In this document: in pieces, positions 6,999 to 7,211 of the stretch | Layout of the letters: every line of letters starts with the position of its first letter | Numbering within the stretch: the first letter of the stretch is position 1 | DNA from: a virus | Taxonomy: Monodnaviria > Loebvirae > Hofneiviricota > Faserviricetes > Tubulavirales > Inoviridae | Virus record (IMG/VR): IMGVR_UViG_2529292923_000001 | Reading direction: 5' to 3' (one strand) | DNA: 7,781 bases | Notes under the pieces: generated by a model | What the model was told of the DNA's origin: nothing | Database searches by the model: none | Seen by the model: the letters and a program-made list of their open reading frames with translations, nothing else | Program-made: the position numbers and the translations under genes

Positions 6999-7211
6999 AT
7001 GAAAAAAGAAACAAAGCGCGGAGACACAACCGTAAGGATTAACGAAAACAGAAAACTGGAGCTAAAACGAAGAGTGCTGGAAATCGGTAATAAAACAGGT
7101 GAGCTACTAAAACCATCAGAGATAGTAAACCACTTAATAGACAACTACTTAGATGATGCGGTGAAAGATCTAATAAGCAAAGAAGAACTTAAGAAAAAAA
7201 AGGCAATGTGA
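6999..7211 (+). CDS. small basic putative transcriptional regulator (possibly ribbon-helix-helix), divergent from the rep operon
   Basis: ATG at 6999 with GAGGT 8 nt upstream; the ORF-track start at 6996 is a TTG. The 70-aa protein MKKETKRGDTTVRINENRKLELKRRVLEIGNKTGELLKPSEIVNHLIDNYLDD... has a basic N-terminus, a short beta-like TVRINE segment and two predicted helices. Position matches the repressor of other filamentous prophages (RstR-like arrangement). Confidence 0.55.
   Translation: MKKETKRGDTTVRINENRKLELKRRVLEIGNKTGELLKPSEIVNHLIDNYLDDAVKDLISKEELKKKKAM

What the first reader, a model, noticed from the sequence alone, without database searches (positions are those of the whole stretch)
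6999..7211. Small basic regulator divergent from rep, possibly a phage repressor or immunity determinant
Size, charge pattern (a basic N-terminal beta-like segment followed by two helices) and divergent placement next to the operator-like palindromes suggest a ribbon-helix-helix type repressor, analogous in position to RstR of CTXphi. This is the most likely determinant of superinfection immunity for this element.
Basis: inference. Interest (0 to 1): 0.45.

Follow-up and report, generated by a model that had tools for sequence, protein, structure and literature searches.

The report
Small RstR-type phage repressor gene
The small gene facing the replication gene of this E. coli filamentous prophage very probably encodes a ribbon-helix-helix repressor related to the "environmental" RstR of cholera-toxin phage variants. 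It would keep the prophage silent and set its immunity type, so it is a well-supported but ordinary kind of phage regulator.

Summary
Window 6999-7211 (+) is a real 70-aa, basic (pI 9.6) gene, divergent from the orf65-rep operon of a CTXphi-like inovirus prophage integrated at E. coli dif.

Evidence on what it is:
- It matches PHROG 2503 (E=1.5e-27) and is 68-70% identical to proteins annotated RstR in CTXphi/pre-CTXphi variants and in Vibrio anguillarum VAI phages.
- There is no Pfam or NCBIfam model.
- hhalign against ParG gives 77-81% probability (P~1e-5).

Evidence on how it works:
- CGCATGCG occurs only twice in the 7.8-kb window. Both copies lie in the intergenic region and bracket the rep promoter (TTTACA-18-TATGAT).
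- Across relatives, the palindrome pair changes together with the N-terminal strand residues.
- E. coli AST217 carries the same prophage with an identical Rep. Exactly the operators plus the DNA-binding core of the regulator are replaced there by another family member.

The best reading is therefore an RHH repressor of the rep promoter and the immunity-specificity cassette. No experiment exists for this allele. Novelty: a new member of a known kind.

The parts
6999..7211 (+). Gene for the 70-aa RHH-type repressor (small-RstR family, PHROG 2503). Residues 9-15 (DTTVRIN) are the predicted DNA-reading strand, 16-33 helix A, 39-~55 helix B, and 56-70 a Lys-rich tail.
6985..6989 (+). Shine-Dalgarno AGAGG, 9 nt upstream of the ATG.
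   Evidence: read from the sequence
6955..6963 (+). Candidate extended -10 (TGGAATAAT) of the regulator's own promoter. A -10-like element occupies the same place in Vibrio, Xenorhabdus and Arsenophonus relatives. Inferred, not tested.
   Evidence: (alignment), inference
6927..6934 (.). Operator-like palindrome CGCATGCG (regulator-proximal), 2 nt upstream of the -35 of the rep promoter and about 20 nt upstream of the regulator's candidate -10.
6884..6891 (.). Operator-like palindrome CGCATGCG (rep-proximal; overlaps the 10-bp palindrome ATGCGCGCAT at 6887-6896), 3 nt downstream of the -10 of the rep promoter and so over the expected transcription start.
6895..6924 (-). Sigma-70-like promoter of the orf65-rep operon: TTTACA (6924-6919), 18 nt, TATGAT (6900-6895), 10 of 12 matches. 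The same TTTACA-18-TATAAT arrangement is found in relative L020.
6664..6861 (-). orf65 (PHROG 3104, function unknown), the first gene of the repressed operon. Its stop overlaps the annotated rep start.
5468..6664 (-). Replication initiator (Rep_trans PF02486, RstA-like), the presumed main target of repression. The longest ORF runs to 6694; PGAP starts it at about 6664.
6847..7172 (.). Exchangeable immunity-type cassette: the first codons of orf65, the whole intergenic region, and regulator codons 1 to about 58. E. coli AST217 has a different family member and different repeats here, while the flanks are about 99-100% identical.
7297..7320 (+). G+C-rich hairpin (ACCCCCGTGTT / AAGACGGGGGT) followed by TTTAT, 85 nt downstream of the stop. 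Possible terminator of the regulator transcript; it was not called by the terminator scan.

Best explanation
The gene encodes a 70-residue ribbon-helix-helix DNA-binding repressor of the small RstR family. It belongs to a CTXphi-like filamentous prophage integrated at the E. coli dif site.

Proposed mechanism (inferred):
- Two subunits pair their N-terminal strands (D9-T-T-V-R-I-N15) into an antiparallel ribbon that reads the major groove of CATG-centred palindromes.
- Two such sites (CGCATGCG at 6884-6891 and 6927-6934, 43 bp apart and so on the same helix face) abut the -35 and cover the start region of the promoter driving orf65, rep, the ssDNA-binding protein and probably the downstream virion genes.
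- Occupying them blocks RNA polymerase. This keeps the prophage silent and shuts off rep on any incoming genome that carries the same operators, giving homo-immunity.
- The regulator-proximal site lies just upstream of the regulator's own candidate promoter, so autoregulation is likely.

Shown here: the gene is real and conserved; homology to annotated RstR alleles; a predicted RHH fold; the position and statistical rarity of the palindromes; co-variation of operator with strand residues; a cassette swap between otherwise identical prophages.

Inferred only: dimerisation, actual DNA binding, repression, immunity and autoregulation.
For: Gene reality and family
- PHROG 2503 at E=1.5e-27; 130 homologues; 80 clusters at 50% identity. 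Every phage-record match is to an inovirus (Inoviridae or unclassified inovirus records).
- The family has invariant R7, D9, T10, T11, R13, E16, R18, K19, G30, T33, G34, I47, D48, Y50 among close members.
- 68-70% identity to 'RstR' of CTXphi/pre-CTXphi and VAI phages, in the same divergent position.
- The VAI authors annotated their copy as RstR by 95% identity and synteny (PMC7412436).

Fold
- AlphaFold2 model at pLDDT 90.4 with arm-helix-helix topology.
- hhalign against ParG gave 77-81% probability, P 1.3-2.1e-5, while HTH controls gave P~0.3.
- A 142-aa homologue (P0109) is a tandem duplication of the domain, as expected for a unit that works as a dimer.

Operators
- CGCATGCG occurs twice in 7,781 nt, both times in the 137-nt intergenic region, flanking TTTACA-18-TATGAT on the rep strand.
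- In 20 or more related loci each specificity class has its own motif exactly twice per locus, both upstream of the regulator. For the palindromic classes the spacing is 43-54 bp. Pairings: DTTVRIN with CGCATGCG; DTTVAIN with TTACATGTAA; RKSIGI(S/N)N with TGCACATGTGCA or TGCAATTGTGCA.

Module behaviour
- The same regulator family sits divergent from two unrelated Rep families: Rep_trans and Phage_CRI.
- In E. coli AST217 exactly the operators plus the DNA-binding core are swapped in an otherwise identical prophage.

Experimental precedent
- Eight CTXphi rstR alleles each repress only their own ig-2 promoter in E. coli (PMC11509585).
- One of these, rstR6 (192 bp), has the primer-encoded N-terminus MKKKYTSLRV. 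This matches family members MEKKYTSLRVS... in 9 of 10 residues.
Against: - No experiment exists for this protein, and I found none in the held literature for its closest RstR allele. That allele is probably rstR-4**, but I could not verify the name.
- The link to the experimentally tested RstR-6 rests on ten primer-encoded residues and gene length only.
- No Pfam or NCBIfam model is matched above threshold.
- The structure was predicted as a monomer, so the defining intertwined dimer was not modelled.
- The first, shallow model (pLDDT 72) gave only unspecific fold hits.
- No LexA box or other induction signal was found in the intergenic region, so how repression is lifted is unknown.
- The regulator's own promoter is inferred by eye; the scan tool called a different, weaker site.
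Confidence: 0.78

Rival explanations
1. It is a DNA-binding RHH regulator of the same intergenic region, but not a simple immunity repressor. It might activate or fine-tune its own or the rep promoter, or control RF copy number in the way CopG controls repB on pMV158, without conferring superinfection immunity.
For: The regulator-proximal palindrome lies upstream of the regulator's candidate -10, a position compatible with activation. RHH proteins such as ParG and CopG act as copy-number or partition autoregulators (established knowledge). ParG is the best profile match.
Against: The two sites bracket the rep promoter's -35 and start site, which is a repressive geometry. Homologues are annotated RstR in CTXphi, where rstR alleles are allele-specific repressors and immunity determinants (PMC11509585). 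The cassette swap pattern matches that of immunity regions.
Confidence: 0.12
2. It is the RHH antitoxin of a toxin-antitoxin pair, or a ParG-like centromere-binding partition adaptor, carried by the prophage for maintenance.
Against: There is no conserved downstream partner. Neighbours differ between loci: a 131-aa or 110-aa ORF in Xenorhabdus and Arsenophonus, a 68-aa ORF in VAI2, nothing adjacent here. There is no ParA/ParF-type ATPase in the element. The constant neighbour is rep across a promoter region. The C-terminus is a short Lys-rich tail rather than a toxin-binding domain.
Confidence: 0.04
3. It is a chance ORF or a decayed remnant without function.
For: Sixty-seven ORFs of 30 aa or more exist in the window, most of them spurious. 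There is no Pfam or NCBIfam hit.
Against: Strong amino-acid conservation across Enterobacterales, Vibrio, Aeromonas and Pasteurellaceae inoviruses. It has a Shine-Dalgarno sequence, is annotated by PGAP, and gives a confident fold prediction.
Confidence: 0.01

Closest known systems
'Environmental' RstR of CTXphi/pre-CTXphi variants (GenBank ACV95592.1 in GQ466611, ALF99878.1 in KR063268, ADE80682.1 in GU942563; probably the rstR-4** type) and the RstR-like protein of Vibrio anguillarum phages VAI1/VAI2
   Same: 68-70% identity over residues 6-61, with an identical N-terminal strand DTTVRIN. It has the same size class once the Vibrio proteins are read from their internal ATG (64 aa). It is divergent from rep, and the intergenic region is alignable, with GCATGC-type palindromes and the same TGTAAATAC (-35) element.
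   Different: The host is E. coli and the phage backbone differs: it has its own secretin, an extra orf65 before rep, and a Rep only 33% identical to RstA. The C-terminal tail differs. Repression by this allele type was not found tested in the literature I could read.
Canonical CTXphi RstR (El Tor, classical; about 112 aa) acting on ig-2
   Same: Same position, and the same presumed job: repressing the rep (rstA) promoter, allele-specific immunity, and co-variation of repressor with its intergenic operators (PMC11509585).
   Different: From established knowledge, the canonical proteins are helix-turn-helix (Cro/cI-like) and about 40 residues longer. The protein here is predicted RHH. No LexA box was found here, whereas the CTXphi rstA promoter is co-repressed by LexA (own knowledge; for the absence).
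RstR-6 of pre-CTXphi (AF452586), tested in PMC11509585
   Same: A small rstR allele (192 bp). Its primer-encoded N-terminus MKKKYTSLRV matches family class IV members (MEKKYTSLRVSEKRK...). It was shown to repress only its own ig-2 promoter in E. coli.
   Different: It belongs to a different specificity class (different strand residues, different repeats).
ParG (TP228, PDB 1p94) and other small RHH repressors (CopG, Arc, omega, CdbA, MazE9 N-domain, SSV E73)
   Same: Strand-helix-helix topology. The helix B motif D(V/I)VN.L(V/I)DN(W/Y)L is shared with ParG. These proteins bind repeated or palindromic sites at promoters.
   Different: There is a six-residue longer connection between helices A and B and a longer helix B with a basic tail. 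No partner ATPase or toxin is present. Sequence similarity is below family thresholds.

Membership tests
PHROG 2503 / small-RstR family of inovirus regulators | Significant full-length profile match | tested here: met
   E=1.5e-27, residues 6-68 on profile positions 2-64 of 65. Reciprocal family searches recover only 60-100-aa proteins with the same motifs.
PHROG 2503 / small-RstR family of inovirus regulators | Encoded divergently from the replication initiator of a filamentous phage across a short promoter region | tested here: met
   True for the window and for 27 of 27 loci in which a rep was detectable. Rep is on the opposite strand, 123-844 nt upstream, and is either Rep_trans or Phage_CRI type.
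CTXphi RstR (functional class: rstA-promoter repressor and immunity determinant) | Sequence homology to a protein named RstR | tested here: met
   68-70% identity to the environmental-type RstR of CTXphi/pre-CTXphi. No relation to the El Tor/classical type was seen or expected.
CTXphi RstR (functional class: rstA-promoter repressor and immunity determinant) | Regulator and its intergenic operators vary together as one allelic cassette | tested here: met
   Strand-residue and palindrome classes co-vary. AST217 swaps exactly window 6847 to about 7172.
CTXphi RstR (functional class: rstA-promoter repressor and immunity determinant) | Represses the cognate rep promoter in trans and blocks superinfection by the same type | not testable with these tools
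   Needs reporter and infection assays. The only precedent is for other alleles (PMC11509585).
Ribbon-helix-helix (Arc/MetJ/CopG/ParG) superfamily | N-terminal strand followed by two helices | tested here: met
   AlphaFold2 model at pLDDT 90.4: residues 1-15 extended, H16-33, H39-69.
Ribbon-helix-helix (Arc/MetJ/CopG/ParG) superfamily | Structural similarity to solved RHH proteins | tested here: met
Ribbon-helix-helix (Arc/MetJ/CopG/ParG) superfamily | Sequence or profile match to a curated RHH family | tested here: inconclusive
   hhalign against ParG gave 77-81% probability, P 1.3-2.1e-5. The Pfam ParG model is hit weakly by 8 of 73 members (best E 0.019), below the gathering score. Arc, Mnt and omega were not significant.
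Ribbon-helix-helix (Arc/MetJ/CopG/ParG) superfamily | Intertwined homodimer with a two-stranded antiparallel ribbon that contacts DNA | not testable with these tools
   Only single-chain prediction was allowed. The indirect hint is a natural tandem-duplicated homologue, P0109.

The most novel reading that the evidence does not exclude
The small-RstR proteins form an uncurated RHH family with no Pfam or NCBIfam model. Their N-terminal strand and CATG-centred palindrome pairs would form a readable recognition code that defines heteroimmunity groups of filamentous phages across Enterobacterales, Vibrio, Aeromonas and Pasteurellaceae.

The E. coli protein and the CTXphi environmental RstR share the strand DTTVRIN and GCATGC-type operators. 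They may therefore cross-repress, so that an E. coli dif prophage and a cholera-toxin phage variant would belong to one immunity group.
Probability: 0.4. Interest if true: 0.5.

Novelty: new member of a known kind. Interest (0 to 1): 0.36.

Why it matters
The result gives a function to a protein that is 'hypothetical' in E. coli, Salmonella, Xenorhabdus, Arsenophonus and other genomes, and of 'unknown function' in PHROGs.

It shows that several short CTXphi rstR alleles belong to a fold class (RHH) different from the textbook helix-turn-helix RstR.

It supplies concrete operator sequences and candidate specificity residues. With these, immunity groups of dif-integrating filamentous prophages could be predicted from sequence, and prophages could be de-repressed on purpose.

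It does not change how phage repression is understood.

Tried and rejected
- **Curated family scans.** Pfam, NCBIfam and PDB sequence searches gave nothing above threshold.
- **hhalign against other RHH proteins.** Omega, Arc, Mnt and CopG were not significant (P 0.014-0.42). Only ParG, and weakly TTHA0139, scored.
- **LexA box.** A search for CTGT-N8-ACAG found none in the intergenic region.
- **Rfam.** Scanning the whole window gave no family.
- **Phage DNA similarity.** Megablast against the phage collection found no match, so the element itself is not a deposited phage genome.
- **Naming the CTXphi allele.** AF133307 is not in the collections. Mukhopadhyay 2001 and Li 2003 are not held. 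Accession and strain searches were uninformative. The rstR-4** label therefore stays a guess based on gene length.
- **Wasted query.** One literature search was too loose and returned noise.
- **Toxin-antitoxin and partition readings.** Rejected because no conserved partner gene exists.

Full report
**Context**

The window is one unit of a filamentous (inovirus) prophage. All structural and replication genes are on the minus strand:
- secretin, 253-1533
- Zot/pI, from 1766
- DUF2523 pVI-like protein
- a pIII-like protein with Gly-Thr/Gly-Ser repeats
- major coat protein, 4695-4970
- an ssDNA-binding-like protein, 5123-5458
- a Rep_trans initiator, 5468 to about 6664
- a 65-aa ORF, 6664-6861

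Near-identical copies (99.0-99.5%) occur in 15 complete E. coli genomes. They are often in tandem, and the genes are annotated only generically. The left junction in strain E700025 reads ATTTAACATAATATACATTATGCGCAC, the reverse complement of E. coli dif, and in AST217 the element lies next to hipBA. The element is therefore a CTXphi-like, dif-integrated prophage.

**The observation**

- ATG at 6999, TGA at 7209-7211, 70 residues, with AGAGG 9 nt upstream.
- PGAP calls the same CDS.
- The protein is basic (pI 9.6). The charge sits in the first 33 residues and in a KKKK tail.
- It is not a chance ORF. It matches PHROG 2503 at E=1.5e-27. Two word-index searches returned 38 and 130 homologues. An exhaustive profile search of 1.84 billion representatives found 80 clusters, nearly all 58-100 residues long.
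- Close relatives share invariant R7, D9, T10, T11, R13, E16, R18, K19, I29, G30, T33, G34, I47, D48, Y50 and D57.
- Every phage-record match belongs to an inovirus, classified or unclassified.

**Relation to RstR**

A translated search of phage genomes found 68-70% identity over residues 6-61 to proteins annotated RstR. These occur in four CTXphi/pre-CTXphi records ('environmental RstR; cryptic phage CTXphi transcriptional repressor') and, as 'RstR-like putative transcriptional regulator', in V. anguillarum phages VAI1/VAI2. In every case the gene is divergent from rstA.

The VAI authors based their name on 95% identity and synteny with a CTXphi RstR (PMC7412436).

The intergenic DNA of the window also aligns with that of pre-CTXphi and VAI2, sharing GCATGCGCGCAT...TGTAAATAC.CATGC. 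The resemblance to RstR is therefore homology, not only position.

It is not homology to the textbook El Tor/classical RstR. Those are about 112-aa proteins that, from established knowledge, use a helix-turn-helix.

A recent study lists eleven rstR alleles. It shows, with lux reporters in E. coli, that eight of them each repress only their own ig-2 promoter (PMC11509585). Three of the tested alleles are short: calc 180 bp, rstR5 204 bp and rstR6 192 bp. The rstR6 forward primer encodes MKKKYTSLRV. This matches family members MEKKYTSLRVSEKRK... found here in 9 of 10 residues. A tested repressor therefore very probably belongs to this family, although I could not obtain its full sequence.

The allele closest to the window protein is probably rstR-4**. 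Its length is compatible with a substitution reported at nucleotide 237. I could not verify that name.

**Fold**

- There is no Pfam, NCBIfam or PDB sequence match above threshold.
- A first AlphaFold2 model from 30 close sequences was mediocre (pLDDT 72) and gave unspecific fold hits.
- With 99 diverse family members the model reached pLDDT 90.4. Residues 1-15 are extended, helix 16-33, a five-residue turn, helix 39-69.
- CdbA, E73 and MazE9-N are documented RHH proteins (PMC7156744, PMC5569661, PMC9477884). XACb0070 is an RHH protein to my knowledge.
- TTHA0139 was also the second-best sequence-profile hit, aligned over strand, helix A and helix B.
- hhalign of the family against ParG (sequence verified as PDB 1p94) gave 80.6% probability and P 1.3e-5 over 42 columns. 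Against a 27-sequence ParG profile it gave 77-79% and P about 2e-5 over 46-47 columns. The only gap is a six-residue insertion between the helices.
- Two helix-turn-helix controls scored P about 0.3.
- One homologue (P0109, 142 aa) is a head-to-tail duplication of the whole domain, which fits a unit that functions as a dimer.

I regard the RHH assignment as well supported but not proven. The dimer itself could not be modelled.

**Operators**

The 137-nt intergenic region holds the only two CGCATGCG octamers of the window (6884-6891 and 6927-6934; expected 0.13 per window).

On the rep strand they bracket a good sigma-70 match: TTTACA (6924-6919), 18 nt, TATGAT (6900-6895). One site ends 2 nt upstream of the -35. 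The other begins 3 nt downstream of the -10. Their centres are 43 bp apart, about four helical turns.

I extracted the 170 nt upstream of the regulator in 23 related loci. Each group of proteins with a given N-terminal strand has its own motif. In the loci counted, the group's motif occurs exactly twice in the whole 3.7-10-kb locus (L003 and L002 instead carry three intergenic GCATGC copies plus one elsewhere), and both copies lie upstream of the regulator.

| N-terminal strand | Motif | Spacing | Loci |
|---|---|---|---|
| DTTVRIN | CGCATGCG, or degenerate CATGC(A/G)C | 43 bp | window, L011, L006, L008 (L003, L017, L018 have one perfect and one degenerate copy; L002 has GCATGC copies only) |
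| DTTVAIN / DTTIAIN | TTACATGTAA | 43-53 bp | L020, L021, L031, L033, L034 |
| RKSIGI(S/N)N | TGCACATGTGCA or TGCAATTGTGCA | 52-54 bp | L030, L035, L036 |
| KKYTSLRVS (RstR-6-like) | GTGCATACA(A/T)GCG | 101 bp | L032, L037, L038 |

In L020 the regulator-proximal palindrome overlaps the -35 of a TTTACA-18-TATAAT promoter on the rep strand. The architecture is therefore conserved while the sequence changes.

The central CATG is kept in most classes while the flanks change together with position 13 of the strand (Arg, Ala, Gly). This is what one expects if the strand reads the site.

**Module behaviour**

The regulator is divergent from rep in every locus where a rep could be recognised. However, the rep belongs to either of two unrelated families: Rep_trans here and in Vibrio, Phage_CRI in Xenorhabdus, Arsenophonus and many metagenomic inoviruses.

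The strongest single result is a natural swap. E. coli AST217 carries the same prophage at the same site, with an identical Rep protein (WP_000805821.1). In it, window 6847 to about 7172 is replaced (H15). That stretch comprises the first codons of orf65, the whole intergenic region and regulator codons 1 to about 58.

The replacement encodes another family member, MAEKRKSYNVPNEKYLKLERLAIDASQKIGRSIKWTEVLSYMIDHY.... It has a different strand and different intergenic repeats (CATGAGGTCA in inverted orientation, and several CATGA motifs). Its last 10 residues, QEELKKKKAM, and everything downstream are shared with the window. This is the signature of an immunity-specificity cassette, parallel to the rstR/ig-2 variable region of CTXphi.

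**Mechanism and its limits**

I conclude that the protein is an RHH repressor. It occupies two palindromes around the rep promoter, silences orf65-rep and downstream genes, and sets the immunity type.

Autoregulation is plausible. The proximal site lies about 20 nt upstream of a candidate extended -10 (TGGAATAAT, 6955-6963), and a -10-like element is found at the same aligned place in relatives. This part is inferred only.

I found no LexA box, no antirepressor candidate and no known RNA family. How the prophage is induced remains open.

**Rivals**

- A regulator without an immunity function cannot be excluded without experiments. I give it 0.12.
- Antitoxin or partition roles lack any conserved partner gene.
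- A spurious ORF is excluded by the conservation.

**Novelty**

The kind of element is known: a repressor divergent from rep in an integrative inovirus. Close homologues already carry the name RstR. New here are the E. coli member, the RHH assignment for the short RstR class (no paper in the held library combines 'RstR' with 'ribbon-helix-helix'), the operator sequences and their co-variation with strand residues, and the AST217 cassette swap.

This is a solid annotation gain with modest surprise.

Noticed in passing
window 7700-7781 continuing into window 1-16; L004 5985-6012 and 13860-13960: The window ends are the two arms of a CTXphi-style attP. CAGTGCGCACAATGGCGTTATGT...(hairpin GGCCGCTGCG/CGCAGCGGCC)...CAACATAACGCGTGTCACATTATGCGCACTG form two inverted dif-like half-sites with an over-long central region. 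In single-stranded DNA these could fold into a XerCD substrate. The prophage's left junction is a 27/28 match to E. coli dif, and copies are in tandem.
   Followed up: partly
L050 (E. coli AST217) 9555-9886, versus window 6847-7172: The same prophage with an identical Rep carries a different family member plus different intergenic repeats. The recombination breakpoints lie inside orf65 (codon about 5) and inside the regulator's C-terminal tail.
   Followed up: yes
window 6664-6861 (-): orf65 is an acidic 65-aa protein (PHROG 3104, unknown function) with no Pfam or NCBIfam hit. It is the first gene of the rep operon and its stop overlaps the rep start. It has no counterpart in CTXphi. Its role (antirepressor, Rep accessory factor) is unknown.
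   Followed up: no
L049 (phage If1, NC_001954) locus 820-1023 (-), record about 5119-5322: The annotated 'major intergenic region' of the classical phage If1 contains an intact, unannotated 67-aa homologue of this regulator (MEVKMATPKRTTMAIVAERKLKLERLAIDASHTAGRAITWTDIVNHLIDNY...). Beside it is an ORF that looks like an IS200-type transposase.
   Followed up: partly
L006-L008, L017, L020-L029, L034 versus window, L002, L003, L018, L031, L035, L036: The regulator family is paired with two unrelated replication-initiator families (Phage_CRI PF05144 and Rep_trans PF02486). The regulatory cassette therefore moves independently of the replication module.
   Followed up: yes
protein P0109 (142 aa, metagenomic): A natural tandem duplication of the whole domain in one chain, possibly a single-chain pseudo-dimer.
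   Followed up: no
window 7289-7504 and 7553-7693 (+): Downstream of the regulator lies a G+C-rich stretch (about 51% against 37% for the gene) with short direct repeats (CCGTCCTC, GCTGGCGT). After it comes a 46-aa strongly hydrophobic ORF that contains a terminator-like hairpin (7594-7613). Neither has any family hit. This may be ori/packaging-signal DNA rather than coding sequence.
   Followed up: no
window 3100-3400 (-), inside the pIII-like gene 2862-4385: A long (Gly-Thr/Gly-Ser)n repeat forms the linker of the receptor-binding protein. BLAST matches to other E. coli copies break into pieces there and the annotated gene length differs (1632-1686 nt), which indicates repeat-number variation.
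   Followed up: no
E. coli genomes H16-H20: Other E. coli prophages share only window 69-5124 (the structural module, 98.5% identity). They carry a different replication-regulation module, and one has a 'phage/plasmid replication domain' protein. This is the modular mosaicism typical of inoviruses.
   Followed up: no
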